From assembly GCA_016219965.1 (NCBI GenBank), contig JACRJM010000003.1, forward strand, positions 130,299 through 194,298: a stretch of DNA of 64,000 nucleotides, written 5' to 3'. The DNA comes from Candidatus Schekmanbacteria bacterium. GTDB taxonomy: Bacteria > Schekmanbacteria > GWA2-38-11 > J061. Of the stretch, positions 11,183 to 61,440 are shown one piece after another (the first letter of the stretch is position 1; every line of letters begins with the position of its first letter). The notes under the pieces are model-generated. The model was given only the letters and a program-made list of their open reading frames with translations, was not told the origin of the DNA and ran no database searches. The translations under genes and the position numbers were made by a program.

Positions 11183-11252
11183 ATACATCGAAACATCTAT
11201 AAAGAATAATTTTGGCAATGAATAAAAATGAATAAAATGGAGGGGAATAGTT

Positions 11253-13736: not shown

Positions 13737-13798
13737 TGCTTAACGCTGTGTAACTATTTTGACTGGAATATTTTTCTGGGGACTTTTGGAGGAAAAAA

Positions 13799-14650: not shown

Positions 14651-14672
14651 AATAAAGATATGAGGTTTTGTA

Positions 14673-15197: not shown

Positions 15198-15202
15198 CCT
15201 TT

Positions 15203-15592: not shown

Positions 15593-16049
15593 AAATATAT
15601 TACTGAATGCGGCTACTAATGCTTTTGAACAGTTATGCTTCATGTTTAGTTCTCCTGATGATGAAGATACTGAAAAAAATTTACGTACCTGGGTAGCGTC
15701 GATTGTGAATTTTTCCGGCCCATTTTCTGGTAAATTAATTGTAAGAGCGCACAAAGGGTTGCTTAATGTAATTGCTTCAAACATGCTGGGGGAAGAGGCA
15801 TCAACAGCCAAACAACAGATAGATGCGCTTGGGGAAGTTTCAAATGTCATATGCGGAAGCGTTCTCCCTCAGATTGCCGGAGTAGCAGAGGTTTTTAATC
15901 TTGAAGCTCCGAAAATTCTTCAAAATTCTGAACCTGTATCACCTCAAAATGGAGAAAAAATGGTCTTTGTCAGCATGACTTTGGATGAGGGACGAGTTGA
16001 ATTACAACTTTTCATTAAAGAGGGATTAGAGCTTTTAAAGGAGGTCTAA
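15579..16049 (+). CDS. CheX-type phosphatase (second copy)
   Basis: DALGEVSNVICGS…EAP matches the D-x3-E-x2-N-x21-P motif. Overlaps the preceding cheY by 14 nt. Confidence 0.7.
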   Translation: MEKIENILLNAATNAFEQLCFMFSSPDDEDTEKNLRTWVASIVNFSGPFSGKLIVRAHKGLLNVIASNMLGEEASTAKQQIDALGEVSNVICGSVLPQIAGVAEVFNLEAPKILQNSEPVSPQNGEKMVFVSMTLDEGRVELQLFIKEGLELLKEV

Positions 16050-16050
16050 T

Positions 16051-17112
16051 GTGATCCGTGTACTGGTCGTAGACGATTCAGCGGTTGTAAGGAAAGTATT
16101 GACTGAAGAACTTTCCAAATATGAAGGGATTGAAGTTGTCGGAAGTGCAATAGATCCATATATTGCTCGTGAAAAAATCATCAGCCTTCGTCCTGATGTC
16201 ATAACCCTTGATTTGGAAATGCCAAGGATGGATGGCTTATCGTTTCTTTCAAAGTTAATGAAATTTTATCCATTACCTGTCATAGTTGTAAGTTCTCTTA
16301 CACCTGAAAACAGCGCTACCGCGATTAAGGCTCTTGAACTTGGAGCAATTGATGTAATATGTAAACCTGGTTCTGCTTATTCCATACCCAATGTATCTCA
16401 TCGTTTAGTAACTGCCATACGTGCTGCCGCAACTGCCAAAGTTGTCAAAATGCAGGATGTTAGCGAGAGCCAATCTTCTGTTGCATCGATAAGCGGATTT
16501 CAGCTTCAAACTACACATAGAATTATAGCTATTGGAGCATCAACTGGAGGAACAAAGGCAATAGAAGCTGTTCTGACTAAATTGCCTCCTACAACGCCAG
16601 GTATAGTTATAGTGCAACACATGCCTGAATATTTTACCGCAGGATTCGCAGAAAGACTTAACCAGATATGCAGAATGGAGGTAAGGGAGGCCAAGAACAA
16701 TGACCCTGTTGTACCGGGCGTTGTTCTGATTGCACCGGGTAATTACCATATGGTTTTGGAAAAATCAGGTGCTCGTTATTTCGTAAAGATAAAAGATGGC
16801 CCCTATGTCCACTATCAGCGTCCAAGCGTGGATGTACTGTTCCATTCTGTTGCAGCTAATGCCGGAAGAAATGCAGTCGGCGCCATTTTAACAGGAATGG
16901 GGGCTGATGGAGCTCAGGGACTTTTGAAAATGAGAGAAAACGGAGCACATACTATTGCTCAAGATGAACAATCATGTGTTGTCTTTGGAATGCCAAAAGA
17001 AGCTATAAATCTTGGGGCAGCTGATGAAATAGTTCCACTGCAGGACGTAGCACAGGCATTACTAAATGCCCTGGTTGATAACGATAATATAAGACAGGTT
17101 AAGACAGCCTGA
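16051..17112 (+). CDS. cheB: Chemotaxis response regulator protein-glutamate methylesterase CheB
   Basis: REC domain plus CheB methylesterase domain (IAIGASTGGTKAIEAVL…GMGADG). GTG start with AAAGGAGG RBS. Confidence 0.85.
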   Translation: MIRVLVVDDSAVVRKVLTEELSKYEGIEVVGSAIDPYIAREKIISLRPDVITLDLEMPRMDGLSFLSKLMKFYPLPVIVVSSLTPENSATAIKALELGAIDVICKPGSAYSIPNVSHRLVTAIRAAATAKVVKMQDVSESQSSVASISGFQLQTTHRIIAIGASTGGTKAIEAVLTKLPPTTPGIVIVQHMPEYFTAGFAERLNQICRMEVREAKNNDPVVPGVVLIAPGNYHMVLEKSGARYFVKIKDGPYVHYQRPSVDVLFHSVAANAGRNAVGAILTGMGADGAQGLLKMRENGAHTIAQDEQSCVVFGMPKEAINLGAADEIVPLQDVAQALLNALVDNDNIRQVKTA

Positions 17113-18063: not shown

Positions 18064-18951
18064 TTACTCTGGAAATCCCTCTACTTCTCTGCAGAACTCG
18101 TTGGCTCTTAGTCCCTGGGTCCTTACTAAATTTATCATATCAATTCTTTTTTGCGTAAACCATGCTTCACGCAAAGGCCTGTCGGATATGTTTGAGACCG
18201 GATCCACCCATGCTCCAGCTTCACAAGGACAAAGTATAATATTCCCGTCAGTGGTAATTGACATTTCGTTTTCTATGAAATAACAACTTCTGGAATCAGG
18301 TACGCAGGGAATTGCCTCTTTGTCTAAATCACCGCCTCTTAAACGATATGAAGGGAACTGTACCTTTTTTATCCCCAGCTCGTTAAAGAACTTTTTAAAT
18401 TCCTCCCATCCTTCTGAAACCGTAATGGGAAGCTGTATTTTGGAAATCCAGACCTCTGCCGTTGAACCGGTCTTATGTTTGATATCCATAAACCTTTCTA
18501 CATTCTCCAATACCACACTTAACGGCAGGCCTCTTATGTATTTATATAACTCGTGGTTTAACGTATCAATGGAAAAAACTATTATGTCTGTATTACTTTC
18601 GAGGAGCCTGTAAGCTCTTTCCTCGTTGAGCAGATAACCTGTTGTTGTTATCCAGTTTGCAATCCCTTTGCTATTAGCCCTTTTCATAAAGCCGTATATC
18701 CTGTCGTCACAAAGGGGATCGTTAATCCACTCCCAGTTTATAAAACACTCCCAGTCAATCTCGTCCAGGATCTTATCGATCATCCAGTCAGGCATCAGCT
18801 TGTTCTTGCGTGTTTGAAGAACCTTGCTTCTGGGGCACATTATGCAGTTAGCCGGACACTGAGTTGTCGTCTCAATGGAAAAGTATGCCGGAAGATGAAG
18901 TCCTTCCCATACGTCCTGACCTGGGTAACGGAGAATAGCGTTCTCAGCCAA
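18064..18951 (-). CDS. Radical SAM enzyme with C-terminal SPASM/twitch domain
   Basis: CPANCIMCP (Cx3Cx2C) near the N-terminus. The C-terminal Cys cluster is CPCEAGAWVD…. Confidence 0.7.
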   Translation of the reverse strand: MAENAILRYPGQDVWEGLHLPAYFSIETTTQCPANCIMCPRSKVLQTRKNKLMPDWMIDKILDEIDWECFINWEWINDPLCDDRIYGFMKRANSKGIANWITTTGYLLNEERAYRLLESNTDIIVFSIDTLNHELYKYIRGLPLSVVLENVERFMDIKHKTGSTAEVWISKIQLPITVSEGWEEFKKFFNELGIKKVQFPSYRLRGGDLDKEAIPCVPDSRSCYFIENEMSITTDGNIILCPCEAGAWVDPVSNISDRPLREAWFTQKRIDMINLVRTQGLRANEFCREVEGFPE

Positions 18952-21850
18952 AGCAAACTCCCTTTTCCAGTATTCTGTTCATGTCTGCTAACTCTTCATG
19001 CCTGTTAACCTGCTTATGCCCCTCATACCAGTATCCAAGCGTATTCCCTATCTCGGAAGCAACAATCTTAAACAATGCTTCTGAAAAATCTTTTTTTCCT
19101 ATTTTTAATGAGTTATGATTTTCAAGAATATATTTCATGAGATTTTTCATTTGCTCATTAAAGTTAGAAAACATGTGGTTGTATTTGAATGGGTTGCCGC
19201 TGCCTTTATGTCCATTGGTACAATTAATTTCAAGGAGCAGATTTTTTAGACTTGCTTCATCACAGGCAGTACCATTGAATTTTCTTACCTTGTCATAGAA
19301 ATTTTCTGTTGATTCATTTAACAGTTGAAGAAATGCCTTGAAATCATTGGGTGTTATGTTTGCCTGCGGTTCCCACTCAGAAATTGACATCTTTATTGTG
19401 TCATAGAGAACCCATGATTTATGGGCTATATCCCTAAGTGAAGATATATGGAGAGTTTCAAAATTGGGCACCTCATTTCCGAGAAGCTCTGTAAATGCCT
19501 TCATGCCATTGTAATTCCTCTTAAGGAAATAATCAGCATTCTTGTAGTGCCAGTGATATACCCCGCAGGAATAAAGAAATCCAAGGTGCTCTCCGTTCCG
19601 TGCCATTCTCATCCCTGCCTCGATGTCCTCGGCGTTTGATATTTTTTTAAATCCATATTTAAGGAGAGATTTCTTTGAATAACATGCACAAACATTGTCA
19701 ATAAATGAGACTTTTCTCTTTAATTGCTCCGGCAGACAGTCAAAAGATTCTTTGTCCTGTAAATAGTATTCTACGTCCCTGTCAAATCCGTAGGAGTTAT
19801 ATGTTATATCGGTAATCCATCTGCTGTAAAGGTCGGCATCAGAATTTACCATCTGCCTTATTGAGAGAGCTGCAAGCTCAGGAGATGCCTTAAAAGTTTG
19901 AGCTATCTTGTATAACAGATAATCGCTGGCAGGAAGGGCATCATGTACCGTATAGAGGACATAATCGCCGCTTGCGTGTTCCGCTGCCAGCTGCCTCGTC
20001 GCACCATGATTAAAAGATTCCCTTGGTATCTGAACAATCTTTGCTCCATTCTTTGCAGCAACTTCCAATGTGCCGTCAGTGGAACCTGAATCTATAATAA
20101 CTATCTCAACATCCTTCACCTTCTTTTGTTTTTTTATTTTATCCATAAGAGCTATAAATTGCTGCCCACCGTTCAATACTGGGATTACTATTGAAAATTT
20201 AGCATCAGCACAGCTGGCATCAGATATATTGCTTTTTATGGGATTGAATGTCATCAACTTGCTTAATGTCTTATTCAAAGTGGCACTTCTATTGAGGAAT
20301 TTCTGATTTGTATGGTCCAAAAGATTATTCAATTCCCTGTTCTTTTCAAGCTCGCTCTGATAGCGTTTATGCATCATATCTATTATGCTTACAGTCCCAT
20401 CAAATGCTTTAGCTTTAAAGATATAGTCGTCACTGTCCGCAGTTGACTGGCCATTTGCAGGTTCAACAGAATTAGATGTTTCTTTTTTATCCATTTTATC
20501 ATCAGCGGCAAAAACAGAATCATCTACCATGATTTTTTCAAGAAATGAGTAGTCGACACCTTTTACCTTTGCAGCCATTTTCCCGCGGTTTGACATATCT
20601 TCCACAGAACCATCGCACATGATAAGGTTGTTTTTCTTATAGAAGTCAAAAAGAGTACTTCCCGGGACAGGAGTGTAAAGGGCCGGCGAATAATGGATAG
20701 GCTTGACTTTTAATACTCCAGCCACTGTCATTATATCATCTTCTTTATGCCAGCCTGTATCAGTGGGGATGCCTAAAATATAATTTGCCCAGATCTTTAC
20801 ACCATACTTGTGTAATATTTCTGTAGCCCTGAAATTGTCCTCGGGAGTTGCCTTCTTGTTAAACCATTTTAATATCCTTGGGCTGAAAGACTCAAAGCCA
20901 ATAATAAGAAATGCAAGGCCAGAGCCTGCCATTTTTTCTATTAAATCCTCGTTCTTGCAAATTACATCTGCCTTAGAAGATGTAACCCATTTGAAACCGC
21001 TCTTTACAAAGCCTTTATCATGAAGAGCCTGCGTGAATTCTTCCACCCACTCGCGGGACATTATAAACTGGTCATCATGAAACATGGCAGACCTGATACC
21101 ATACTTATCCCTAAGCATCTCTAACTCTGCAATCACATTTTCAACACTTCTTCCCCTGATATAGGAAATGCGTTTGCCATCCTTATCAAGCCTTGTGTAA
21201 AGTTGATGTTCTCCGGGTCCGCAGCAGAATGTGCAGTTAAAGGGACAACCTCTGGTATTCATAAGTTCAGCCATAGGGAGAGGGAAATGAAATTTTTTCA
21301 AGCCAAAGGGCTCGCAGTTCATTCTTACATCATAATCCGACCAGATCTCCCTGTCAGGAAACGGGATCTGGTTTAAATCAGGAGTTTTCCCCCAGGAATA
21401 TTTCGGGAACTTTGATGGGTTTTCAATAAGCTCTGGAAAACTTATTTCACCTTCTCCCTGTATTACATAGTCAAAGGCGCCTGTCTTAAGACATTCCTCG
21501 GGAAACATAGTAGGGTGAATGCCACCCGCAACCCTCATAGCTTTTGGGAGGATGGCAGAGGCTATTTTTCCTGCTTCTACAGCTATTGAAAATTCCACAG
21601 AATGGATTGAAAATCCTATTACGTCAGGAGAATTTTTCTTTAACAAAGTCTTATATTCATCCCAGCCGGAAAGCATCCTGAAGTCCACAAGGAAAACCTC
21701 ATGTCCTTTAGATTTAAGCGCTCCCGCCAGATAAGCTAGTCCAAGACGTATGAAAATACTGTCAGGAGATGGTTTTTTTAAATCAGCATCCCACGAACTA
21801 TAGGCTAAGGCTGGATTGACTAAAAGAACTTTTGCCATTTTCCTCTCCAA
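18944..21850 (-). CDS. Fusion protein: B12-binding (class B) radical SAM domain + GT2 family glycosyltransferase + unknown C-terminal domain
   Basis: The N-terminal 150 aa form a cobalamin-binding-like Rossmann region (KVLLVNPA…DVIGFSIHS). Radical SAM CPFNCTFCCGP follows. A GT2 domain starts near residue 555 (FSIVIPVLNG…IIDSGSTDGT). The last roughly 200 aa resemble nothing I recognise. Confidence 0.65.
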   Translation of the reverse strand: MERKMAKVLLVNPALAYSSWDADLKKPSPDSIFIRLGLAYLAGALKSKGHEVFLVDFRMLSGWDEYKTLLKKNSPDVIGFSIHSVEFSIAVEAGKIASAILPKAMRVAGGIHPTMFPEECLKTGAFDYVIQGEGEISFPELIENPSKFPKYSWGKTPDLNQIPFPDREIWSDYDVRMNCEPFGLKKFHFPLPMAELMNTRGCPFNCTFCCGPGEHQLYTRLDKDGKRISYIRGRSVENVIAELEMLRDKYGIRSAMFHDDQFIMSREWVEEFTQALHDKGFVKSGFKWVTSSKADVICKNEDLIEKMAGSGLAFLIIGFESFSPRILKWFNKKATPEDNFRATEILHKYGVKIWANYILGIPTDTGWHKEDDIMTVAGVLKVKPIHYSPALYTPVPGSTLFDFYKKNNLIMCDGSVEDMSNRGKMAAKVKGVDYSFLEKIMVDDSVFAADDKMDKKETSNSVEPANGQSTADSDDYIFKAKAFDGTVSIIDMMHKRYQSELEKNRELNNLLDHTNQKFLNRSATLNKTLSKLMTFNPIKSNISDASCADAKFSIVIPVLNGGQQFIALMDKIKKQKKVKDVEIVIIDSGSTDGTLEVAAKNGAKIVQIPRESFNHGATRQLAAEHASGDYVLYTVHDALPASDYLLYKIAQTFKASPELAALSIRQMVNSDADLYSRWITDITYNSYGFDRDVEYYLQDKESFDCLPEQLKRKVSFIDNVCACYSKKSLLKYGFKKISNAEDIEAGMRMARNGEHLGFLYSCGVYHWHYKNADYFLKRNYNGMKAFTELLGNEVPNFETLHISSLRDIAHKSWVLYDTIKMSISEWEPQANITPNDFKAFLQLLNESTENFYDKVRKFNGTACDEASLKNLLLEINCTNGHKGSGNPFKYNHMFSNFNEQMKNLMKYILENHNSLKIGKKDFSEALFKIVASEIGNTLGYWYEGHKQVNRHEELADMNRILEKGVCFG

Positions 21851-21883
21851 TATTTATAAAAAATTATTTTATCTGCGCGACGC

Positions 21884-23005
21884 TCACAGGAAGCATACGT
21901 GTTCTTTGGGTCTTGTGATATTCCATAATACCTGATTAAATGTGTTGCACCTGCACAATGGGATACAGTCATCAAAATCTATTTTTTCGCAGGCCTCTTT
22001 CCGTTCTTCCGAATTCCAAACCTCTGCAAGACTTTTTTCCTTGAGATCCCCGATACAATACTTTTCATAACCTCTGAGATGGCAGCAGATGTACATCTTG
22101 CCGGTTGCGGCAATAACCGTAGCAAACTGGTGGCCATAGCATTCCTTGTAATTCCTTCCATAATCTTTCGAGTTCATCATGTCGTATTTATGTTTTGAAT
22201 GGAGGACATCAAAGGCATTGCCGCTGTATTTTATACATTTCGCAATTTCCCTCGTAACATCTTCCCAGTTGTATTCAAAATTTCCGCCGCGATGTATCTG
22301 CATTGGACGAAACTGGATATAGTCAACTCCCATATCTCTGCAAAGGATAGTTGCTTTTTCCAAATCACCGCTTGTCTCCCTGCTGGTCAGGTATCCTACT
22401 CCCACTGTGGCGTTGCTTTGTAATTCCTTTTTCATTCTTGTCAGCATTCGTATATTCTCTACAACCTTGTTAAAAGCATTTCCGTCCCTTCCATGCGTTT
22501 TCAAGAATACTTCAGGGGTTGCAGCATCAAGAGAAACCCTTATCCATGTGCAATTTTTCAGAAGCTTCTCTGCTGACTCTTCTTTTAGAAGCTGGCCATT
22601 TGTGATAAAACCGACATCTATACCTCTTGATTTTGCACGCTCGACTATATCAGGAGTATCAGGATGGCATAATGGTTCTCCGCCGCCGGTAAAAATCAAT
22701 CCCCTTGCTCCTTCTTCGCCTAATTGATCTATAATTGATTCTGCCCTTTCCCTTGAAAGGGAATTACTGTCTGTAAGCTGGTAATAACTTACAACGCACT
22801 CCGGGCACTTGTGATTGCATACATTTGTCATATCTATTTCAACAGTAATAGGTGGAGGATTATCTCCATCTATCCATGCGCTGACCCTGTCCAAATGTTG
22901 CAGAATTTTCTCAGAACTGAACTGTTTTACATCATTAAGCTTTTCCTTAAGGTCGGGGATAAATTCTATGATGTTTTCTTTTTTTGGTGCTGCAGCGCCC
23001 TTCAT
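21884..23005 (-). CDS. Radical SAM enzyme with SPASM domain (first gene of the operon)
   Basis: CNHKCPECV (Cx3Cx2C) with a C-terminal Cys-rich SPASM region. I start it at the internal ATG (MKGAAAPKK), which has a perfect AAAGGAGG RBS 6 nt upstream. The ORF track extends to 23056. Confidence 0.7.
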   Translation of the reverse strand: MKGAAAPKKENIIEFIPDLKEKLNDVKQFSSEKILQHLDRVSAWIDGDNPPPITVEIDMTNVCNHKCPECVVSYYQLTDSNSLSRERAESIIDQLGEEGARGLIFTGGGEPLCHPDTPDIVERAKSRGIDVGFITNGQLLKEESAEKLLKNCTWIRVSLDAATPEVFLKTHGRDGNAFNKVVENIRMLTRMKKELQSNATVGVGYLTSRETSGDLEKATILCRDMGVDYIQFRPMQIHRGGNFEYNWEDVTREIAKCIKYSGNAFDVLHSKHKYDMMNSKDYGRNYKECYGHQFATVIAATGKMYICCHLRGYEKYCIGDLKEKSLAEVWNSEERKEACEKIDFDDCIPLCRCNTFNQVLWNITRPKEHVCFL

Positions 23006-23057
23006 AAAAAATCCTCCTTTTAATAAATAAAAATGCTCATAGATAAAAAATACCAAG

Positions 23058-23072
23058 CCTCTTTAAGCAATA
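23058..23072 (-). promoter_or_regulatory. Sigma-54 (-24/-12) promoter for the radical-SAM operon
   Basis: The minus strand reads TGGCAG-gatta-TTGCT, an almost perfect TGGCAC-N5-TTGCW. It sits about 40 nt upstream of the RBS/ATG at 23005. Confidence 0.5.
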
Positions 23073-23298
23073 ATCCTGCCAAAGGTTTATTAGAAGGAGA
23101 AGGGATTATTATCAGACAATAACCATTTGATATTTATATTTTTTTTGAAGCGGTGCCTTTTTTCTCAATAGAGCATTCTTAAACAATTATTGTGGAAAAG
23201 ATTGCCCATTGAGGAGAAAAATTAGCCTGGTGAAATGATTATCAGGAAATTGATTTCATGCTGAGTACTTCTTAAGATAGGGGAGCAAATTTACTTCT

Positions 23299-23703
23299 TC
23301 AGGATTTATCAACAAGGTACTGAAAAGAGTATATTTGAAGGTTTTTTATAAGGTTTTGCTCGACCTCCTTGCATACGGTATGTATGGGGCATGTTGCCTT
23401 CCTTTTGCATACATCTTCCCCGTTTACGCATATATTTATAAGTGGTAATGCTTCCATTGCTTTAACAACATCAAAAACAGTCAACTGACTAGGTGTTACG
23501 GCCAATGAATAACCGCCGCCTTTACCCCTCTGGGATTGCACGATTCCTTGTTTGTTCAGACGGTGCATTATTTTGGCAACAAATGGGCGAGGTATTTCTT
23601 CGTCGGCAGACAGGGCATCTATCCTGGAAAACCCTTTTTCCTGTTTTGACAGGTTTAAAACGCACCTTATTGCATAATCTGTATCACGCTTAATACGTAA
23701 CAT
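23299..23703 (-). CDS. Rrf2-family (IscR-like) transcriptional regulator
   Basis: N-terminal wHTH DYAIRCVL…S..EIP..F.AKI. Three cluster-ligand cysteines (CVNGEDVCKRKATCP). Confidence 0.75.
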   Translation of the reverse strand: MLRIKRDTDYAIRCVLNLSKQEKGFSRIDALSADEEIPRPFVAKIMHRLNKQGIVQSQRGKGGGYSLAVTPSQLTVFDVVKAMEALPLINICVNGEDVCKRKATCPIHTVCKEVEQNLIKNLQIYSFQYLVDKS

Positions 23704-34240: not shown

Positions 34241-35155
34241 TTATTTCTCTTTCTTCTCTGAAAAGTACTCAACCACCATTTCTCCCAAAAATCCAAGCGA
34301 GATTACCTGCACCCCAAGTATCATCAAGGCAACACCTAAAATGAGCATCGGAATATGTTCCTTGATGTCGTAAACGCTGAGCATGTAATCAGATATTACC
34401 TGGAGCATATTGATAAGAAACCCAAATGAGAAAATAGTTCCTCCGGTGGCACCGAAAAAATACATTGGCTTCTTCATGAATGACAGGCGGAATTTCACGA
34501 CGACCAGATCTATTATGCCTTCAAAAAGCCTCCTTGCACCAAACTTAGATTTGCCTGAGTTTCTCTCATACCAGTTTGTTTCAACTTCTTTGACTTTGAA
34601 ACCTTCGTGGTAAGCAATTGGAATAATATAACGGTGCCAGTTTGCCCGGAGAGGCAGTTCATTTATTACCTCTTTCCGGAAAGCTTTTATCCAGTTCTGG
34701 TCCTTTGCTTTTACTCCGAAAAGAAGGTAACAGACAAAATTATAAAGCCTTGATGCCAGTACCTTGAATTCTTTTCTCCCTACCCGGCAGCCAACTGCTA
34801 AATCATAACCTTCATTTATAACACTTAACAGTTTCGGAATGTCTTCCACCGGGTCAGACTGCATGTCGGACGGTAAAAATATAATAATGTCTCCGTCTGC
34901 ATGACTGAATCCTGTAACAAGGGCACTTGTAAGTCCTGTTCTTTTTCTGTGGTGAAATACTCTAATATTTTCATTTTTTCTCTTTAGCGATTCTGCTATC
35001 TCTCCGGTCTTATCACTGCTCCCGTCATTGATTATTATTATATTCCCCTTGAGGGATTCCTGGTGGAATGACTCATTAATCCTGCCTACAACCTTTTCAA
35101 GATTTCCTTCTTCATTGCATGCCGGAAGTACAACGCTTATTAGTGTGTCCATCAC
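34241..35155 (-). CDS. Polyprenol-phosphate glycosyltransferase (GT2; DPM1/ArnC/GtrB-like)
   Basis: ISVVLPACNEEGNL…IIINDGSSDKT…DGD with two C-terminal TM helices. This is the characteristic GtrB-type architecture. Confidence 0.75.
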   Translation of the reverse strand: MMDTLISVVLPACNEEGNLEKVVGRINESFHQESLKGNIIIINDGSSDKTGEIAESLKRKNENIRVFHHRKRTGLTSALVTGFSHADGDIIIFLPSDMQSDPVEDIPKLLSVINEGYDLAVGCRVGRKEFKVLASRLYNFVCYLLFGVKAKDQNWIKAFRKEVINELPLRANWHRYIIPIAYHEGFKVKEVETNWYERNSGKSKFGARRLFEGIIDLVVVKFRLSFMKKPMYFFGATGGTIFSFGFLINMLQVISDYMLSVYDIKEHIPMLILGVALMILGVQVISLGFLGEMVVEYFSEKKEK

Positions 35156-37029
35156 CTGTATTCCACTTCTATCAGATGTTTCCCTTGTTCAAGTATTATA
35201 AGCCCTTTTTCCCTGTAAGAATCAGAACTTAGAGAATTGCCATCAACTTTTATCTCTACTATATCACTGCTCTGCTGTAATTTCAAAGTTTGCCCCTGAG
35301 CTAATGCTTCTGCATCAATTTTAAGGCTCTTGCCTGTCCTGTATGAGAATACCCTGCTTTTTTTCCGTATATTGAAATAATCGACGAGATTGTTTATCCC
35401 TGTTTTCCATATCCTGTCATCCCCTGATATAAAAGCAGTTATTCTTTCCAGTTTTTCCTTTGATTTTGCATTTGTAACACAGTAGTGAGGATGGAAGAGA
35501 AGGACTACCGGAGAATTGAATTTTTCCGCTGAATCCCTGATTATAGATTCAATCTGCTCAACTGAAAGCTTCCCGTGCGGTTCATGAACCTGAAACGGCA
35601 GTTCGTAAATCTGTGCGGGTGTCCCGTTATCATTTTCCGGGTTATATGGGAACCCTGTGCCAAATATATATCCACCCATATTTCTGCCGGGGCCGAATGA
35701 AGAGTCTATCTTGATCCCTGCCTGTTGAAGAATCAGAAATATCTTTGCTGGATCACTTTCTGCAACAAGGTAGTGTATGCGCGAAACAGAGGCTGGTTCT
35801 GATCCGCTTATTTCACTGAGCTTCTTTATTTGTGATGATAAAGACTTCTCTTTCTCCATGTGCATCCCTGTAACAGTTGCATGTAAATGAAAGCGGTTCC
35901 AATGAATACCTGTTCCAAGTCTGCGGTTTCTTAAAAGTTCAAATGTTGAATGTCTGGCAGGAGTGGAAGACATCATAAAGAACATAGGATTCAGTTTTGA
36001 TACATCTCCCATTGAAAGAACGTCTGCTGCCTCGTCACCGCAGTAATCCTCATCAAATGTAAGAATAGCTGCGGAAGATTTTCCATCAGGGTAATACCAC
36101 CATGTAGGCACTTTTTCACATTCTGCCGCAGTCAAAATTATGGAGCGTTCGAAAATATCGAGGAACGGCATTGCCTCATATCTTTTATTATTGAGACAAC
36201 TGGAATCACTAGTCTGCCTGTGGCTTAGACTGATAAGGGAAATCGCTTTCGATATAATTTGTTTTTTACTCTTTTCCCCGCCCTGAGAAAGCAGAAAGCG
36301 CCAATCTGAGATTTTGAAAAATATGCTTACCACTATTCCTTTCCCGGACCGGCATCTCAGGATTATGGGAAGGCCATCAACCTCTGATATTATTTCTTCA
36401 TTTTCAACCTGCGATGTAATCTGTCTGCATAAGAGCTTGGGCAGTCCAGTAGGAAAGAGGCTCTTGTCGCTGCCGCGGCTGGAGAACCTAATCCCGTTCA
36501 GATTTATGTTAATTAAAGGACCTGTTGAAACCCCTGTTAAAAGCTCGATCCTGTTATCAGGACATTCGAGAAGAACAGTTCTCCCTGTTTCCCTCACCAA
36601 ACCCAGGAGTTTATTGATTCTTTTTGAAGAAGAGGATATTTCTTCAACTGCTTCAGCAGTAAATATTATGACCCGGCCATTCTGAGGGATAAAGTTTTCA
36701 TCAGAAGTAAGCCTGTACATACCAAAAAACCCGCATTCTTTTGAAAGTATGTTGAGCCACTCCATTTCATGGCTATCTTTCCTGCTCCCTGTAAACGAAG
36801 AAATAACCAATATGAAATCTGCCTCTGTGTTTTGAACTTCCTCGATATTTGAGGCTGTCATCTGAGCCGGATTCTCTTTGATCAAAAGGGGAAGAAGAAT
36901 AAAAGCAATAATAGCAACAATTACAGCAAATGCGACCGGCACAATTATCGGTAAAACTTTAAGGAATGGAGAAATGACTGCAATAAACAAAAAAAGGTAA
37001 AAAAAGATTTTAAGTATATTTCTTCCCAT
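35152..37029 (-). CDS. Membrane-anchored protein of unknown function (possible deacetylase-like core)
   Basis: N-terminal TM helices followed by a large extracytoplasmic domain. The ILTFDEDYCGDEA segment is reminiscent of the CE4 motif. Overlaps the GT2 gene by 4 nt. Confidence 0.3.
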   Translation of the reverse strand: MGRNILKIFFYLFLFIAVISPFLKVLPIIVPVAFAVIVAIIAFILLPLLIKENPAQMTASNIEEVQNTEADFILVISSFTGSRKDSHEMEWLNILSKECGFFGMYRLTSDENFIPQNGRVIIFTAEAVEEISSSSKRINKLLGLVRETGRTVLLECPDNRIELLTGVSTGPLININLNGIRFSSRGSDKSLFPTGLPKLLCRQITSQVENEEIISEVDGLPIILRCRSGKGIVVSIFFKISDWRFLLSQGGEKSKKQIISKAISLISLSHRQTSDSSCLNNKRYEAMPFLDIFERSIILTAAECEKVPTWWYYPDGKSSAAILTFDEDYCGDEAADVLSMGDVSKLNPMFFMMSSTPARHSTFELLRNRRLGTGIHWNRFHLHATVTGMHMEKEKSLSSQIKKLSEISGSEPASVSRIHYLVAESDPAKIFLILQQAGIKIDSSFGPGRNMGGYIFGTGFPYNPENDNGTPAQIYELPFQVHEPHGKLSVEQIESIIRDSAEKFNSPVVLLFHPHYCVTNAKSKEKLERITAFISGDDRIWKTGINNLVDYFNIRKKSRVFSYRTGKSLKIDAEALAQGQTLKLQQSSDIVEIKVDGNSLSSDSYREKGLIILEQGKHLIEVEYR

Positions 37030-37150
37030 TTTGCCCAGTCAATCTTGATATAAGAAATTGAATTTAGTATTTAGAAGTATAATGTATTAAAATAAGTTTT
37101 GTTAAATAAAAATAAAGGAATTTATATGAATTGTTATCAAGAGACCTTAT

Positions 37151-37315
37151 ATGGATGATGTTGTACAACAAAGGACAAAATGTCCTGACTGTGATTATTG
37201 CCTTAATTGCCCTGTCAGCAGGTGCAATTTGTGCAGAGCGCAGAAGAAGAAAAGCGAGATGAAAAAATGCTGCAAGAAAGAACAACCCGAAACACCTGAG
37301 GTTAGCGAGCCTTAA
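37151..37315 (+). CDS. Small Cys-rich protein (54 aa, 8 Cys), not in the ORF track
   Basis: Hand translation gives MDDVVQQRTKCPDCDYCLNCPVSRCNLCRAQKKKSEMKKCCKKEQPETPEVSEP*. The stop lies 3 nt before the radical-SAM ATG at 37318. A possible TTGTTA-N17-TTATAT promoter lies at 37099-37127. Confidence 0.4.
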   Translation: MDDVVQQRTKCPDCDYCLNCPVSRCNLCRAQKKKSEMKKCCKKEQPETPEVSEP

Positions 37316-37317
37316 AT

Positions 37318-38331
37318 ATGAAAGAGGCATACCTTTATGAAAAACTTGATGATCTGATTGTCGGCTGTTTTCTGTGCGAACACCGCTGTAAGATAAACGA
37401 AGGGAAGAAAGGAATATGCGGAGTCCGTGAAAACAGAGGTGGGATTCTCTATTCCATTGTATATGGCATTGCATCTGCGCTTAACATAGACCCTATAGAA
37501 AAAAAACCTCTCTATCATTTCTATCCCGGATCACAGGCACTCTCTATCGCAACAATCGGCTGTAACTTTGTGTGCCGGTTCTGTCAGAACCATGATATCT
37601 CTCAGGCATCAAGGGGTGAATTTAAAAGTAAATCTGACAAAAAAATTCTTCCTGAAGATATAGTACGGATTGCAGCTGATGCCGGATGTAAAAGCATATC
37701 CTATACATACACTGAACCTACAATTTTTTTCGAATATGCCTATGATACGTCGGTGCTTGCCGTAAAGAGGGGGATAAAGAATAATTTTGTGACTAACGGT
37801 TTTATGACTCCTGAGATGCTGAACATGATTAAACCATATCTTCATGCTGCAAATGTGGATATCAAGTGCTTCAATGACAGGACTTACAGAAAACTCATGG
37901 GAGGGAGGCTGGAGCCGGTTTTAGATTCCATAAAACTGATGAAGGAGATGGGAATTTGGGTTGAGGTGACGACTCTCATAATCCCCGGAGTAAACGACTC
38001 TGATGAAGAGCTTGAGCAAATCGCTGATTTCATAGTTTCAGTGGGAAATGAAATCCCCTGGCACGTGAGCCGCTTCCACCCTGACTATAATTTTAATGAT
38101 TCACCTGCAACTCCTGAAGAACGAATCATCTCAGCCAGAGAGATCGGTATTACAGCCGGACTAAAGTATGTCTATACTGGAAACATATTCCATAATGAAG
38201 GTAACACCACGTACTGCCATGCCTGCGGAGAAACCCTTATCGAACGGGTCGGTTTGTCAGTAACCCGGTACAATGTAGTCAACGGAAAATGTCCCAAATG
38301 TAATGCTCCTCTTTCAGGAATAGGAGTATAA
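37318..38331 (+). CDS. Radical SAM enzyme, PflA-like activase of the AmmeMemoRadiSam type
   Basis: CFLCEHRC followed by CNFVCRFCQN (Cx3Cx2C). The whole protein resembles the AMMECR1/MEMO1-associated radical SAM family. Confidence 0.65.
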   Translation: MKEAYLYEKLDDLIVGCFLCEHRCKINEGKKGICGVRENRGGILYSIVYGIASALNIDPIEKKPLYHFYPGSQALSIATIGCNFVCRFCQNHDISQASRGEFKSKSDKKILPEDIVRIAADAGCKSISYTYTEPTIFFEYAYDTSVLAVKRGIKNNFVTNGFMTPEMLNMIKPYLHAANVDIKCFNDRTYRKLMGGRLEPVLDSIKLMKEMGIWVEVTTLIIPGVNDSDEELEQIADFIVSVGNEIPWHVSRFHPDYNFNDSPATPEERIISAREIGITAGLKYVYTGNIFHNEGNTTYCHACGETLIERVGLSVTRYNVVNGKCPKCNAPLSGIGV

Positions 38332-59241: not shown

Positions 59242-61440
59242 GTGAGAAAAGGACACATATTAGTTGTTGATGATGAAAACAACATAGGCACAACCCTTGA
59301 AGGGATTCTTACTGACGAAGGGTATGAAGTGTCGAAGGCTGAAAACGGGCTTCAGGCACTTGACATGATAAAGCGGGTCCCTCCGGATGTGGTATTGCTT
59401 GATATCTGGATGCCGGGAATGGACGGGATAGAAGTCTTAAAAAGCATAAAAGAACATGAGAGCGATACTGAGGTGGTTATAATGTCAGGGCATGGCTCTA
59501 TTGATACCGCCGTAAGGGCCATCAAGCTGGGTGCATTTGATTTCATCGAGAAACCTCTTTCGCTTGACTCCCTGCTTTCTACAATCAACCATGCCCTTGA
59601 AAGACAGAGGACAGCAAAAGAAAGCCAGGAACTTAAAAGAGAACTTCTTCAGCGGTATGAGCTTATAGGTGAGAATCCGAAAATACAGGAGGCACGAAAG
59701 CTTATCAGCGCAGCCGCAATCTCAAATGCAGGGGTATTGATAGAAGGGGAACATGGCACAGGCAAAGAACTTGTGGCAAGGACCATTCATATCAACAGCA
59801 TCAGACGCAACAGGCCTTTTGTAAAAGTAAATTGTGCTGCTCTTCCTGATGATATAATAGGGAATGAAATGTTCGGCTGCGACTCAAACAACGGAGGAGG
59901 AATAAGCAAAAGGGGAAAATTTGAGCTTGCAGAAGACGGCACTCTCTTCCTCGACGGCATAGAAAAGCTGGACATCAATGTTCAGGAGACAATCCTGAAA
60001 GTTCTTCAGACAGGAAAATTCATGCGGATTAACGGGAAGAGGCTTCTCCCTGTCAACTTCAGGATAATAGCTGCAAGCGAAAAGGACATTCAGAAACTGA
60101 TTGAAGAGAACAAATTTTCCAGTGAGCTCTATTCATTCATATCTACCTTTGTCATATATCTGCCCCCCCTGCGCGACAGAAAGGATGACATCCCGTCACT
60201 TGTAAATTACTTTAGCCGCGAGCTTACACAGGATTACGGCAGAGGTGTTAAGGAAATCGACGACAATGCCATGGCAGCCCTTGTGACTTTTGACTGGCCC
60301 GGCAATGTGAAAGAAATCAAGAATATTATCGAGCGTCTGGCAATATCTGTTCCCACAGGGAGGATATCTGCCGACGATATCCCTGTTTCGATCCGCGGAA
60401 TAACGCCAAAGACTTCCCAGTACCAGTACAACGGCTACTCATTGAAAGACGCGAGACAGAAATGGGAAAAGGAATACCTCATTCACTGTCTGACCATGAC
60501 AGGATGGGACCTCAAGAAGACCGCAAAGGAAATGGGAATAACCTGCAAGACCCTTGAGAAGCACATAAAATCCTTCGGTCTTAAAAAACCTAAGAAAGAG
60601 ACAAGCACTGCTGCAAGAATCCAGCGCACACTAAAGACAAGCGTAGTCCTCTGCGGTCAGGGGCTCCATTCCGGACTTAAGACAGGTCTGATACTTGTCC
60701 CCCAGAATCCAAACGCCGGTATCGTATTTGCTAATGTTTCTACCGGAGAAACCATGACAGCAGTTCTTGATAACGTGGAATCAACAGACTATGCCACATC
60801 GTTAAAGTGCGGCAAGTCCCATGTAAAAACAATAGAACATATCATGGCTGTGCTTAATATTTACGGGATAAACAACCTTCTCATAAAGATAACCGACGAG
60901 GTTCCCATAATGGATGGTTCATCCCTTGATTTCTGTGAACTTATTGAGGATGGGGGCATTCTTGAGCAGGATGAGTTTATAGAGGAAATAGTCATAGACA
61001 AGGTCATAGTTCACGGCAAGGAAAGTCCCAAGGAAAAGTATATTAAAATAGAGCCCTGCGATAAGTTTTCCGTGAAGTATATAATGGATTATCCTCCGCC
61101 CATCGGCAAACAGGAAATGGATTATGTTTTCAAGGGGGCCGAGGATTTTAAAAAGAACATTGCCCCTGCCAGAACCTTCGGTTTCCTCAAGGACGTAGAA
61201 TACCTTGAGAAGAAGGGGCTGATCAGCGGAGGAAAGCTTCACAATGTCATCCTCCTTGATAACGAGAAGGTAATAAACACTGAGCTGAGGTTCAAGAATG
61301 AGTTTGCAAGGCACAAGGTGCTCGACATTATCGGCGATTTCTATCTCCTCGGCAGACCGCTAAGGGGCAAAATTACCGCGCACCTTACAGGCCATTCAGA
61401 AAACATAGCTCTTCTTAATAAGATACGTTCTATCTACTGA
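59242..61440 (+). CDS. NtrX-like response regulator (REC–sigma54-type AAA+–HTH) fused in frame to a complete LpxC (UDP-3-O-acyl-GlcNAc deacetylase) domain
   Basis: Residues 1-457 carry REC (ILVVDDE…LLDIWMPGMDG), Walker A GEHGTGKE and a Fis-type HTH. Residues about 470-732 align over their whole length with E. coli LpxC: IQRTLK…GQGLHSG, TIEHIMAV (zinc-ligand EH), RTFGF, ARHKVLDIIGD, TGHSEN. There is no stop codon and no in-frame start codon at the junction. Confidence 0.7.
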   Translation: MRKGHILVVDDENNIGTTLEGILTDEGYEVSKAENGLQALDMIKRVPPDVVLLDIWMPGMDGIEVLKSIKEHESDTEVVIMSGHGSIDTAVRAIKLGAFDFIEKPLSLDSLLSTINHALERQRTAKESQELKRELLQRYELIGENPKIQEARKLISAAAISNAGVLIEGEHGTGKELVARTIHINSIRRNRPFVKVNCAALPDDIIGNEMFGCDSNNGGGISKRGKFELAEDGTLFLDGIEKLDINVQETILKVLQTGKFMRINGKRLLPVNFRIIAASEKDIQKLIEENKFSSELYSFISTFVIYLPPLRDRKDDIPSLVNYFSRELTQDYGRGVKEIDDNAMAALVTFDWPGNVKEIKNIIERLAISVPTGRISADDIPVSIRGITPKTSQYQYNGYSLKDARQKWEKEYLIHCLTMTGWDLKKTAKEMGITCKTLEKHIKSFGLKKPKKETSTAARIQRTLKTSVVLCGQGLHSGLKTGLILVPQNPNAGIVFANVSTGETMTAVLDNVESTDYATSLKCGKSHVKTIEHIMAVLNIYGINNLLIKITDEVPIMDGSSLDFCELIEDGGILEQDEFIEEIVIDKVIVHGKESPKEKYIKIEPCDKFSVKYIMDYPPPIGKQEMDYVFKGAEDFKKNIAPARTFGFLKDVEYLEKKGLISGGKLHNVILLDNEKVINTELRFKNEFARHKVLDIIGDFYLLGRPLRGKITAHLTGHSENIALLNKIRSIY

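What the first reader, a model, noticed from the sequence alone, without database searches (positions are those of the whole stretch)
37099..38331. Unannotated 8-Cys mini-protein translationally coupled to an orphan AmmeMemoRadiSam-type radical SAM activase
A 54-aa ORF (CPDCDYCLNCP…CNLC…CC, missed by the 60-aa ORF cutoff) stops 3 nt before the PflA-like radical-SAM gene. A plausible promoter lies upstream. The radical-SAM enzyme belongs to the family normally found with AMMECR1 and MEMO1 partners, and neither is adjacent here. The Cys-rich peptide could be a substrate such as a RiPP-like or metallopeptide, an Fe-S donor, or a novel partner replacing Amme/Memo.
Basis: seen in the sequence. Interest (0 to 1): 0.6.

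Follow-up and report, generated by a model that had tools for sequence, protein, structure and literature searches.

The report
Cys-rich mini-protein coupled to radical-SAM enzyme
A real 54-residue cysteine-rich protein gene abuts a radical-SAM enzyme gene in a small bacterial clade, and the mini-protein belongs to a large, uncatalogued family of probable metal-binding proteins, so it is more likely a helper subunit than a natural-product precursor.

Summary
ORF 37151-37315 (+, 54 aa, 8 Cys) ends 2 nt before the ATG of a 337-aa radical-SAM (rSAM) gene (37318-38331). That gene scores 364 bits against TIGR04337 (AmmeMemoRadiSam rSAM; cutoff 220).

The small ORF is a genuine gene. The same mini-ORF/rSAM pair, abutting or overlapping, occurs in six contigs representing four lineages (rSAM identity 65-98%), with different flanking genes. 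Core dN/dS is 0.02-0.03 in the close pairs. These rSAMs form an exclusive clade, at least partly Candidatus Schekmanbacteria.

Only six Cys are conserved: C-x2-C-x2-C-x2-C-x4-C-x2-C. GenBank already lists the ORF as hypothetical protein HZA77_02980.

What is new is the family. The core defines at least 759 clusters of 50-120-aa proteins with no Pfam or NCBIfam model, from Geobacterales, Nitrospirota and others. Sampled members lie away from any adjacent rSAM. Some are fused to a ferredoxin or sit in oxidative-stress and electron-transfer operons.

No AMMECR1 or Memo lies in the 64-kb window, and none was detected beside the 80 closest rSAM relatives either, so "orphan" is normal here.

Favoured reading: a metal-binding accessory or electron-relay subunit (about 0.4). 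Main rival: a peptide substrate (about 0.25). No function has been shown.

The parts
37078..37083 (+). Perfect TATAAT hexamer in the 121-nt divergent intergenic region. It is a possible -10 element for the two-gene operon, but the evidence is weak.
   Evidence: Read from the sequence. The best -35 (TTGAAT, 37058-37063) has a 14-nt spacer. The consensus scan reports no + strand promoter here, and its hits are not above shuffled expectation.
37151..37315 (+). Gene for the 54-aa Cys-rich mini-protein (GenBank hypothetical protein HZA77_02980).
   Evidence: ORF shown. An identical protein is in NCBI. Conserved orthologues lie directly upstream of the rSAM in L083, L002, L082, L084/L085 and L091. 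Purifying selection is shown.
37181..37234 (+). Conserved Cys6 core, CPDCDYCLNCPVSRCNLC (C11, C14, C17, C20, C25, C28, plus invariant D13 and near-invariant R24). This is the presumed metal-binding module.
   Evidence: Invariant columns in alignments A2, A3 and A4. It is the only match to the motif in the six-frame window. The module is tandemly duplicated in P0008.
37268..37273 (+). CC pair (C40-C41) inside the Lys-rich tail. It is specific to one sub-branch.
   Evidence: Present in the window, L083 and L002. Absent in L082/P0002, L084/P0003 and L091/P0005.
37313..37320 (+). Stop-start junction: TAA, then AT, then ATG.
   Evidence: The equivalent junctions are a 4-nt ATGA overlap in L002 and L083, a 14-nt overlap in L082, a 32-nt overlap in L091, and a 23- or 41-nt overlap in L084/L085, depending on which rSAM start is used. 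The only GAGG upstream of the rSAM ATG lies 16 nt away.
37318..38331 (+). AmmeMemoRadiSam-type (TIGR04337) radical-SAM enzyme, PflA-like, 337 aa.
   Evidence: TIGR04337 at 364 bits, cutoff 220. PF04055 is the only significant Pfam domain; a second, sub-threshold Radical_SAM_2 hit also appears, and there is no SPASM. The nearest solved structure is PflA at E = 1.8e-7.
37366..37419 (+). N-terminal Cys4 motif of the rSAM (C17, C20, C24, C34).
   Evidence: 100% conserved in 82 aligned family members.
37561..37584 (+). Radical-SAM CxxxCxxC motif (C82, C86, C89).
   Evidence: Aligns to the PflA cluster motif.
37867..37869 (+). Cys184, a cysteine found only in the rSAM clade that carries the mini-protein.
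   Evidence: Cys in 3 of 82 aligned sequences, all three of them the peptide-linked ones, and also in L091. It aligns to PflA Q132, next to the conserved D-x-K strand.
38215..38301 (+). C-terminal CxxC...CxxC motif of the rSAM (C300, C303, C325, C328).
   Evidence: 99-100% conserved in 82 family members.

Best explanation
The 54-aa ORF is a real protein-coding gene. It forms a conserved two-gene operon with a TIGR04337-type radical-SAM enzyme in a narrow bacterial clade; the two named members are Candidatus Schekmanbacteria. The genes abut or overlap, which suggests translational coupling.

The protein is a member of a large, previously uncatalogued family of 50-120-residue proteins built around an invariant Cys6 knuckle (C-x2-C-x2-C-x2-C-x4-C-x2-C, consensus CPDCDFCQxCxxxRCxLC). 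The knuckle most likely binds metal: Fe, an Fe-S cluster or Zn.

I infer that in this clade the mini-protein is made roughly 1:1 with the enzyme and acts as a stoichiometric accessory subunit. The most likely role is a small redox or metal centre that relays the electron needed to reduce the enzyme's [4Fe-4S] cluster, or that otherwise supports or protects its clusters. It is probably not the enzyme's substrate.

Shown: the gene is real, the pairing is conserved and clade-specific, and the family is large with redox-linked contexts. Inferred: metal binding, physical association with the enzyme, and electron transfer.
For: Gene reality:
- Synonymous-dominated divergence, including Cys codon switches.
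- Core dN/dS of 0.02-0.03 in close pairs; synonymous sites saturated with pN 0.14-0.29 in distant pairs.

Pairing:
- The mini-ORF lies immediately upstream of the rSAM in the window, L083, L002, L082, L084/L085 and L091. Junctions range from a 2-nt gap to an ATGA overlap to overlaps of 14-41 nt.
- Flanking genes differ between lineages.
- The peptide-linked rSAMs form an exclusive clade among 82 sequences.
- The window operon is bounded by a divergent gene upstream and a convergent gene 2 nt downstream.

Module-like nature:
- 6 Cys plus D13 are invariant and R24 nearly so across all subtypes, while the N- and C-terminal tails vary.
- The module is tandemly duplicated in P0008.
- At least 759 clusters exist, with no Pfam or NCBIfam model.

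Redox links:
- Three clusters (P0004, P0007, P0010) and L086 carry the module ahead of a ferredoxin sequence; Pfam scores a Fer4_13 domain in P0007, P0010 and L086.
- L092 places it in an operon with rubrerythrin, desulfoferrodoxin, rubredoxin, a multihaem cytochrome, glutaredoxin, the FTR-B subunit and Ni-SOD.
- L087 has a similar arrangement, next to a prismane-family protein.
- L086 lies between a flavodiiron protein and a pyridine-nucleotide disulfide oxidoreductase.

Motif precedent:
- A Cx2Cx2Cx2CP motif occurs within the stretch that Pfam scores as a 4Fe-4S dicluster domain in the neighbouring aldo-keto reductase (CHRCGYCLPCP).

General knowledge (mine, not tested here):
- Stop-start overlap typically gives equimolar synthesis of complex subunits.
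- Radical-SAM enzymes need an external one-electron donor.
- The small Cys4 iron-binding protein Dph3/Kti11 plays that role for Dph1-Dph2.
Against: - No metal binding, interaction or expression has been shown.
- AlphaFold2 on a 19-sequence alignment gives pLDDT 55, which is uninformative.
- The core matches no ferredoxin or rubredoxin model and no solved structure.
- Most sampled family members sit in unrelated contexts, for example downstream of a polysaccharide deacetylase in Geotalea and Geomonas, or free-standing. The redox link therefore rests mainly on one subtype.
- The Schekmanbacteria subtype is not clearly closer to that subtype: mean core identity is 0.58 to FTYG against 0.55 to PLF.
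- The rSAM keeps all its own Cys motifs, so nothing is obviously missing for the mini-protein to supply.
- Cys-rich peptides next to rSAM enzymes are classically substrates.
Confidence: 0.4

Rival explanations
1. The mini-protein is the substrate of the radical-SAM enzyme. It would be a ribosomally made Cys-rich peptide or protein that the enzyme modifies post-translationally, for example by a thioether cross-link, Cα or Cβ H-abstraction, or Cys modification. In this clade it would stand in for whatever the AmmeMemoRadiSam enzyme normally acts on.
For: - The small Cys-rich ORF lies directly upstream of an rSAM gene in a dedicated two-gene operon conserved in four lineages.
- The rSAM is PflA-like, so it belongs to a protein-acting branch.
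- Kaur et al. 2020 (PMC7159879) report an rSAM domain related to the Memo-AMMECR1 system enzymes inside predicted peptide-processing systems.
- A Cys near the predicted active-site strand (C184) is unique to the peptide-linked clade.
- Precedents from my own knowledge: SCIFF/ranthipeptides and QhpC/QhpD.
Against: - The rSAM has no SPASM/twitch or RRE domain.
- No peptidase or exporter lies in the operon or next to it.
- The variable region is the N-terminus, where a leader would sit, while the invariant region looks like a metal knuckle.
- The family has at least 759 clusters, and none of the nine sampled members outside this clade is adjacent to an rSAM.
- The window peptide has no Gly, so it cannot be a glycyl-radical site.
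- Overlapping stop-start coupling implies 1:1 synthesis, which is atypical for precursor and enzyme (general knowledge).
Confidence: 0.25
2. The mini-protein is a different kind of accessory: a metal- or redox-sensing regulator, or a cluster or metal chaperone for the enzyme. It would gate activity or cluster loading according to Fe, Zn or oxidant status, and would not act as an electron donor.
For: - It shares the same conserved coupling evidence.
- Family members occur in oxidative-stress operons and next to thioredoxin and GrpE.
- Tails vary by subtype (KLSxxEQIxLYExLN, HKPLFxx[FY], FTYGxYxxWK, Lys-rich). This suggests one sensing or binding module attached to different partner-specific tails.
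Against: Nothing distinguishes this from electron relay in silico. There is no DNA-binding or known chaperone domain.
Confidence: 0.2
3. The adjacency is functionally meaningless. A free-standing member of the Cys6 family happened to land upstream of the rSAM gene in an ancestor of this clade and has simply been inherited.
For: - The family is mostly free-standing.
- The pairing is restricted to one clade, so it may represent a single evolutionary event.
Against: - The tight junction persists while rSAM identity drops to 65% and synonymous sites saturate.
- It has been remodelled (gap, ATGA, longer overlaps) without ever separating.
- Flanking genes have been replaced around an intact pair.
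Confidence: 0.1
4. The small ORF is not a gene. It would be a chance open frame in an AT-rich leader.
For: - One automatic gene call on the identical contig omitted it.
- It has only a weak Shine-Dalgarno sequence in the window.
Against: - Purifying selection is clear.
- Hundreds of homologues exist.
- L084 has an AGGAG Shine-Dalgarno sequence 7 nt before its start codon.
- The motif occurs only once in 64 kb.
Confidence: 0.02

Closest known systems
AmmeMemoRadiSam system (TIGR04335 AMMECR1-type, TIGR04336 Memo-type, TIGR04337 radical SAM)
   Same: The enzyme scores well above the TIGR04337 cutoff and keeps every family Cys motif. Like the whole system, its substrate and reaction are unknown. 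Balaji and Aravind 2007 (PMC2034487) only predict a shared pathway, perhaps an RNA base modification.
   Different: No AMMECR1 or Memo lies within 64 kb. The coupled partner here is a 54-aa Cys6 mini-protein that is not part of the described system. In the nearest relatives the coupled partner is instead a class I methyltransferase.
Dph3/Kti11 with Dph1-Dph2 (a small Cys4 iron-binding protein that donates the electron to a radical-SAM enzyme). This is from my own knowledge and was not tested here.
   Same: It is the model for how this pair may work: a very small Cys-rich metal-binding protein serving one radical-SAM enzyme as its reductant.
   Different: There is no sequence relationship (no zf-CSL or other Pfam hit). 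Dph3 has 4 Cys in a CSL zinc-finger fold and is eukaryotic or archaeal. No biochemical data exist for this protein.
SCIFF/ranthipeptide and sactipeptide precursor-maturase pairs (Cys-rich RiPP precursors with rSAM-SPASM enzymes). From my own knowledge.
   Same: A short Cys-rich ORF lies directly upstream of a radical-SAM gene.
   Different: The enzyme lacks SPASM/twitch and RRE domains. There is no protease or exporter. The mini-protein family is mostly unlinked to rSAM genes. Its conserved part resembles a metal knuckle, not a leader plus core.
PflA and the glycyl-radical enzymes it activates (PflB, GrcA)
   Same: PflA is the closest solved structure and the nearest characterised enzyme branch. 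It is a protein-acting activase.
   Different: PflA scores only 58 bits against a 232-bit cutoff. The mini-protein has no glycine and no glycyl-radical motif. The enzyme carries extra N- and C-terminal Cys4 motifs that PflA lacks.
Small ferredoxins and rubredoxins, and the structural-zinc lobe of medium-chain dehydrogenases (Cx2Cx2Cx7C)
   Same: All have dense CxxC spacing in about 20 residues. The Cx2Cx2Cx2CP motif also occurs within the 4Fe-4S-domain stretch of the neighbouring aldo-keto reductase. C14-C17-C20-C28 reproduces the Cx2Cx2Cx7C spacing, and the only PDB hit, which is not significant (E = 1.7), is to that lobe of threonine dehydrogenase. Family members are fused to Fer4_13 and neighbour rubredoxin.
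   Different: No HMM match to any Fer4 or rubredoxin family for the core. The core has six, not four, invariant Cys. The metal is unknown.

Membership tests
TIGR04337 AmmeMemoRadiSam-system radical SAM enzyme | Full-length HMM score above the curated cutoff | tested here: met
   364 bits against a cutoff of 220, covering residues 7-334 of 337.
TIGR04337 AmmeMemoRadiSam-system radical SAM enzyme | CxxxCxxC radical-SAM motif plus the family's N-terminal Cys4 and C-terminal CxxC...CxxC motifs | tested here: met
   C82/86/89, C17/20/24/34 and C300/303/325/328 are all present and 99-100% conserved in 82 relatives.
TIGR04337 AmmeMemoRadiSam-system radical SAM enzyme | AMMECR1-type and Memo-type partners adjacent to or near the rSAM gene | tested here: not met
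   No PF01871 or PF01875 hit among about 50 window ORFs. No RGChG or HAGYxYSG motif ORF in the window or in any of the 93 fetched loci (the Memo regex is from memory). Adjacency is common but is not required by the family definition.
TIGR04337 AmmeMemoRadiSam-system radical SAM enzyme | Co-occurrence of AMMECR1-type and Memo-type genes somewhere in the same genome | not testable with these tools
rSAM-dependent RiPP precursor-maturase pair (SCIFF/ranthipeptide/sactipeptide type) | SPASM or twitch auxiliary-cluster domain in the maturase | tested here: not met
   Pfam finds Radical_SAM (PF04055) and a sub-threshold Radical_SAM_2 hit, and no SPASM. SPASM-type NCBIfam models score 19-23 bits against cutoffs of 400-625.
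rSAM-dependent RiPP precursor-maturase pair (SCIFF/ranthipeptide/sactipeptide type) | Precursor family found essentially only beside its maturase | tested here: not met
   None of the nine sampled family members outside the Schekmanbacteria-type clade has an adjacent rSAM. In L098 an rSAM gene lies about 4.7 kb away on the opposite strand.
rSAM-dependent RiPP precursor-maturase pair (SCIFF/ranthipeptide/sactipeptide type) | Leader peptidase and/or exporter in the cluster | tested here: not met
   The operon holds only two genes. The neighbours are an aldo-keto reductase with an Fe-S domain, a Crp-family regulator, a 625-aa protein without Pfam hits, and glycosyltransferases.
rSAM-dependent RiPP precursor-maturase pair (SCIFF/ranthipeptide/sactipeptide type) | Enzyme-dependent covalent modification of the peptide | not testable with these tools
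   This needs mass spectrometry of the co-expressed peptide.
Glycyl-radical enzyme and activase pair | Conserved glycine (RVxG-type motif) in the partner protein | tested here: not met
   The window mini-protein contains no Gly at all, and no Gly column is conserved in the family.
Ferredoxin (Fer4) or rubredoxin families | HMM match, or the canonical CxxCxxCxxxCP or CxxCG...CPxCG motifs | tested here: not met
   The core has no Pfam or NCBIfam hit even at E <= 1. The Fer4 hits come only from the C-terminal domains of the ferredoxin-fused members (P0004, P0007, P0010). The motif is Cx2Cx2Cx2C[PS], one residue shorter than the canonical form.
Uncatalogued Cys6 mini-protein family (defined here) | Invariant C-x2-C-x2-C-x2-C-x4-C-x2-C with Asp after the first Cys-x, and Arg/Lys before the fifth Cys, in a 50-120-aa protein | tested here: met
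   Invariant columns C11, D13, C14, C17, C20, C25 and C28, with R24 at 90% or more. Profile E-values reach 1e-21, and 759 clusters fall at E <= 0.1.
Uncatalogued Cys6 mini-protein family (defined here) | Metal or Fe-S binding by the Cys6 core | not testable with these tools
   The AlphaFold2 model is low confidence (pLDDT 55). This needs ICP-MS, UV-vis or EPR on purified protein.

The most novel reading that the evidence does not exclude
In Schekmanbacteria the Cys6 mini-protein may be the dedicated physiological partner of the AmmeMemoRadiSam-type radical-SAM enzyme, either as its private redox subunit or as its actual substrate. It would occupy the slot filled by a methyltransferase in Desulfobacterota and by AMMECR1/Memo in the classical system. 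If so, this two-gene operon would be the simplest tractable entry point to the unknown chemistry of a near-universal archaeal and eukaryote-linked system. The family of at least 759 clusters would be a new class of bacterial metal-binding micro-proteins.
Probability: 0.2. Interest if true: 0.7.

Novelty: new variant of a known kind. Interest (0 to 1): 0.5.

Why it matters
The AmmeMemoRadiSam radical-SAM enzyme, like its AMMECR1 and Memo partners (which have human homologues), still has no known substrate or reaction. A minimal, conserved two-gene operon that pairs it with one tiny protein gives a cheap experiment: co-express, purify anaerobically, then measure metals, mass shifts and SAM cleavage. 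That experiment could show whether this enzyme acts on a protein or needs a private reductant.

Separately, the work exposes a widespread family of 50-70-residue Cys6 proteins. It has at least 759 clusters at 90% identity and includes cultured Geotalea, Geomonas and Oryzomonas species, yet it has no Pfam or NCBIfam model and no literature. Such micro-proteins are often missed by gene callers. One automated call on this very contig missed it.

Tried and rejected
- **AlphaFold2 of the mini-protein.** A 19-sequence alignment gave mean pLDDT 55 and pTM 0.30. This is unusable, so I ran no fold search.
- **PDB profile search.** Nothing significant. The best hit was E = 1.7, to the structural-zinc lobe of threonine dehydrogenase. 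I keep it only as a spacing analogy.
- **Single-sequence searches.** The 5.8-billion-protein search found only the protein itself. The 1.84-billion-representative phmmer search found the protein and one relative. The family emerged only after profile iteration.
- **Pfam and NCBIfam on 19 family members at E <= 1.** No model covers the core.
- **Literature.** There are no functional papers under 'AmmeMemoRadiSam' and no hit for the motif CPDCDFC. Burroughs et al. 2019 on Memo-AMMECR1 systems is not held in the library.
- **Promoter scan.** No + strand hit upstream, and total hits were not above shuffled expectation.
- **Lost-motif idea.** I considered that the mini-ORF might supply a Cys motif the enzyme had lost. 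All family Cys are retained, and TIGR04337 covers residues 7-334, so I rejected this.
- **Other candidate small ORFs.** L004 (74 aa) and L035 (50 aa) have Cys-rich ORFs upstream of other relatives. Neither shows the motif or any similarity, so I rejected them.
- **Methyltransferase elsewhere in the window.** I searched for a copy of the partner seen in relatives and found none.
- **Peptide-enzyme complex prediction.** I did not attempt it. The tool takes single chains, only window or search-derived sequences are allowed, and no rSAM alignment was available.
Full report
**1. What is in the sequence**

ORF 37151-37315 (+) encodes a 54-aa protein, MDDVVQQRTKCPDCDYCLNCPVSRCNLCRAQKKKSEMKKCCKKEQPETPEVSEP, with 8 Cys. 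Its TAA stop ends at 37315, and the next gene's ATG is at 37318, a 2-nt gap.

That gene (37318-38331, 337 aa) scores 364 bits on TIGR04337, 'AmmeMemoRadiSam system radical SAM enzyme', against a cutoff of 220. PflA and other activase models reach 58 bits or less. Pfam sees Radical_SAM (PF04055) and a sub-threshold Radical_SAM_2 hit, with no SPASM. The nearest solved structure is PflA at E = 1.8e-7.

The pair is bounded on both sides. A divergent 625-aa gene ends its coding region at 37029, and a convergent aldo-keto-reductase/Fe-S gene has its stop at 38334. The unit is therefore a two-gene operon.

The source is a Candidatus Schekmanbacteria MAG. GenBank already lists the small ORF as hypothetical protein HZA77_02980 on a 657,901-bp contig. 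An independent gene call on an identical Logan contig omits it.

**2. Is the small ORF a gene?**

Yes.
- Its closest relative, L002 (rSAM 75% identical), has a 57-aa ORF in the same position with all 8 Cys, overlapping the rSAM start by ATGA.
- In the codon alignment, 12 codons are identical, 15 differ only synonymously and 27 change the residue. Five of the eight Cys codons switch between TGT and TGC.
- For the 24-codon core across six contigs, close pairs give dN/dS of 0.02-0.03. In distant pairs synonymous sites are saturated while pN stays at 0.14-0.29.
- The motif Cx2Cx2Cx2Cx3-5Cx2C occurs once in the six-frame translation of the whole window.

**3. Is the pairing conserved?**

The mini-ORF lies directly upstream of the rSAM in six contigs:

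| Contig | rSAM identity to window | Junction |
|---|---|---|
| window | - | 2-nt gap |
| L083 | 97.6% | ATGA overlap |
| L002 | 75% | ATGA overlap |
| L082 / P0002 | about 70% over the 82 aa available | 14-nt overlap |
| L084 = L085 / P0003 (Schekmanbacteria GWA2_38_11) | 65% | 23- or 41-nt overlap, depending on rSAM start |
| L091 / P0005 | not computed (its mini-protein is close to P0003) | 32-nt overlap |

In L084 the mini-ORF starts at a TTG preceded by AGGAG.

Flanking genes differ between lineages:
- window, L083 and L002: the 625-aa protein and a GT2 glycosyltransferase;
- L085: a 303-aa membrane protein upstream and a 186-aa protein downstream (neither was domain-scanned);
- L082: a different membrane protein.

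Among 82 aligned rSAMs the peptide-linked ones form an exclusive clade. None of the 78 other relatives (53-60% identity) has the peptide.

Only C11, C14, C17, C20, C25 and C28 are conserved, together with K10, D13 and R24. The CC pair in the tail is confined to the window/L083/L002 branch.

**4. 'Orphan' status**

No AMMECR1 or Memo domain occurs in about 50 window ORFs. This is the rule in this part of the family, not an exception.
- No ORF with the AMMECR1 RGChG signature (taken from PMC2034487) or a Memo-like HAGYxYSG signature (from memory) appears in any of the 93 fetched loci.
- Sampled neighbours are unrelated: ParA-like ATPase, archease, MazG and PfkB.
- In 47 of 74 loci with enough upstream sequence, a class I SAM methyltransferase ends within 60 nt of the rSAM start, overlapping it by 1-32 nt in most.

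The enzyme therefore has lineage-specific coupled partners. Whether the Schekmanbacteria genome has AMMECR1 or Memo elsewhere could not be tested.

**5. The mini-protein belongs to a large uncatalogued family**

A metagenome scan and two profile searches recover at least 759 clusters at E <= 0.1. They are nearly all 50-70-aa 'hypothetical proteins' with no Pfam domain. Sources include Geobacterales (for example Geotalea uraniireducens Gura_0977 and Geomonas paludis M1B72_13720), Nitrospirota/Thermodesulfovibrionia, Desulfuromonadales and others.

The core consensus is [KH]xCPDCxFCQxCxxxRCxLC. It has no Pfam or NCBIfam model, no PDB relative and no literature hit.

Tails define four subtypes:
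- Geobacterales: KLSxxEQIxLYExLN.
- Nitrospirota: a Lys-rich linker followed by HKPLFxx[FY].
- An FTYGxYxxWK type.
- The Schekmanbacteria type: a Lys-rich then acidic tail.

P0008 carries two tandem copies of the module.

Nine members outside the Schekmanbacteria-type clade were examined, and none is adjacent to an rSAM. The FTYG type is redox-linked:
- It is fused to, or continuous with, a ferredoxin sequence in P0004, P0007, P0010 and L086. Pfam scores a Fer4_13 domain in P0007, P0010 and L086.
- In L092 it sits in an operon with rubrerythrin, desulfoferrodoxin, rubredoxin, a multihaem cytochrome, glutaredoxin, the FTR-B subunit and Ni-SOD.
- L087 has a similar arrangement beside a prismane-family protein.
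- In L086 it lies between a flavodiiron protein and a pyridine-nucleotide disulfide oxidoreductase.

The Geobacterales type follows a polysaccharide deacetylase in two genera. The Schekmanbacteria core is about equally similar to the FTYG type (0.58) and the PLF type (0.55).

**6. Mechanism**

Shown:
- The gene is real.
- The operon is tight, conserved and clade-specific.
- The Cys6 module is self-contained: invariant core, variable tails, tandem duplication and domain fusion.
- One subtype has an electron-transfer context.

Inferred:
- The module binds a metal or Fe-S centre. A Cx2Cx2Cx2CP motif lies within the 4Fe-4S-domain stretch of the neighbouring reductase. C14/C17/C20/C28 also reproduce the Cx2Cx2Cx7C structural-zinc spacing of medium-chain dehydrogenases, although that PDB hit is not significant.
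- Stop-start overlap implies roughly equimolar synthesis, as expected for subunits.
- I therefore favour a stoichiometric accessory subunit, most likely an electron relay to the radical-SAM cluster. The analogy, from my own knowledge, is Dph3/Kti11 serving Dph1-Dph2. Confidence is about 0.4.

The main rival, at about 0.25, is that the mini-protein is the enzyme's substrate.
- For: the classic Cys-rich-ORF-plus-rSAM layout; the enzyme's PflA-like, protein-acting ancestry; a report of Memo-AMMECR1-type rSAM domains in predicted peptide-processing systems (PMC7159879); and a clade-specific Cys184 that aligns next to the D-x-K strand of PflA.
- Against: no SPASM or RRE domain; no protease or exporter; no leader-like conservation; no glycine; and a family that mostly lives without rSAM genes.

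A sensor or chaperone role (about 0.2) cannot be separated from electron relay in silico. Coincidental adjacency (about 0.1) is unlikely, because the junction persists through saturating divergence and flank turnover.

**7. Novelty and verdict**

The enzyme is a known family member. The small ORF is already annotated as hypothetical in GenBank. Two things are new:
- A large Cys6 micro-protein family with no model or literature.
- A lineage-specific, apparently translationally coupled pairing of one subtype with the enigmatic AmmeMemoRadiSam enzyme.

I rate this a new variant of a known kind, with interest about 0.5. Its interpretation is partly supported: the 'orphan' framing and the RiPP leaning are weakened, while the Fe-S/partner option is strengthened but not shown.

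Noticed in passing
L009-L080 (47 loci), e.g. L010:5219-6001 with the rSAM at 5998-7032: In 47 of 74 relatives' loci with enough upstream sequence, a class I SAM methyltransferase (Methyltransf_11/25, 236-338 aa) lies directly upstream of the TIGR04337 rSAM. It overlaps the rSAM start by 1-32 nt in most and ends within about 50 nt of it in the rest. These are mostly Syntrophaceae, Smithella and Desulfobacterales. This looks like a conserved methyltransferase-rSAM operon that I have not seen described, and it occupies the same position as the mini-protein here.
   Followed up: partly
window 37867-37869 (rSAM Cys184): This cysteine is present only in the rSAM clade that carries the mini-protein (3 of 82 aligned sequences, plus L091). 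It aligns to PflA Q132, immediately after the conserved D-x-K strand. It may be a contact or catalytic residue linked to the mini-protein.
   Followed up: partly
window 18064-23703 (- strand): Three further radical-SAM genes sit in a row: a 295-aa rSAM with a weak, sub-threshold SPASM hit, a 968-aa fusion of a B12-binding rSAM with a GT2 glycosyltransferase, and a 390-aa SPASM rSAM. An Rrf2 regulator lies beside them. The block is flanked by polysaccharide deacetylase, GT2 and PMT-type glycosyltransferases. This may be a glycan or peptide modification cluster. The B12-rSAM/GT2 fusion is unusual.
   Followed up: no
window 59242-61440 (+): One uninterrupted 732-aa ORF combines a response-regulator receiver, a sigma-54 activator AAA+ domain and HTH_8 (residues 6-443) with a full LpxC deacetylase domain (461-728). 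It is either a real NtrC-LpxC fusion or two genes joined by a missed stop or frameshift.
   Followed up: no
L092:2202-6772; L087:1448-4258: A recurring operon in anaerobes contains rubrerythrin, desulfoferrodoxin, rubredoxin, a 70-aa unknown, the Cys6 mini-protein (FTYG subtype), a multihaem cytochrome c, glutaredoxin, the ferredoxin-thioredoxin reductase B subunit and Ni-SOD. It suggests an oxidative-stress or electron-transfer role for that subtype.
   Followed up: partly
L094:4012-5183; L095:4036-5183: In Geotalea uraniireducens Rf4 (Gura_0977) and Geomonas paludis, the Cys6 mini-protein lies about 145-165 nt downstream of a 273-274-aa polysaccharide deacetylase on the same strand. In the window, the divergent neighbour (35152-37029, 625 aa, no Pfam hit) lies among deacetylase and glycosyltransferase genes. 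This may be a coincidence.
   Followed up: no
L002:3462-3704 and L002:3900-4140: Between the 625-aa gene and the mini-ORF, this relative has an extra 80-aa Cys-rich DUF2180 protein (E = 1e-26). It also has a direct repeat of about 70 nt (tccacgacttgatcggggaatccagttgtagctgttttccggctcttccggtca) flanking a masked stretch of N.
   Followed up: no
L093:5001-5249 (P0008): An 82-aa protein carries two tandem copies of the Cys6 module. It lies just after thioredoxin and GrpE genes.
   Followed up: no
window 5940-17112 (+): A complete chemotaxis cluster is present: CheY-like receivers, two CheX, CheA, CheW, an MCP with a zinc-binding CZB domain, CheR, CheD and CheB. An HDOD protein follows it. This is ordinary and recorded only for context.
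   Followed up: no
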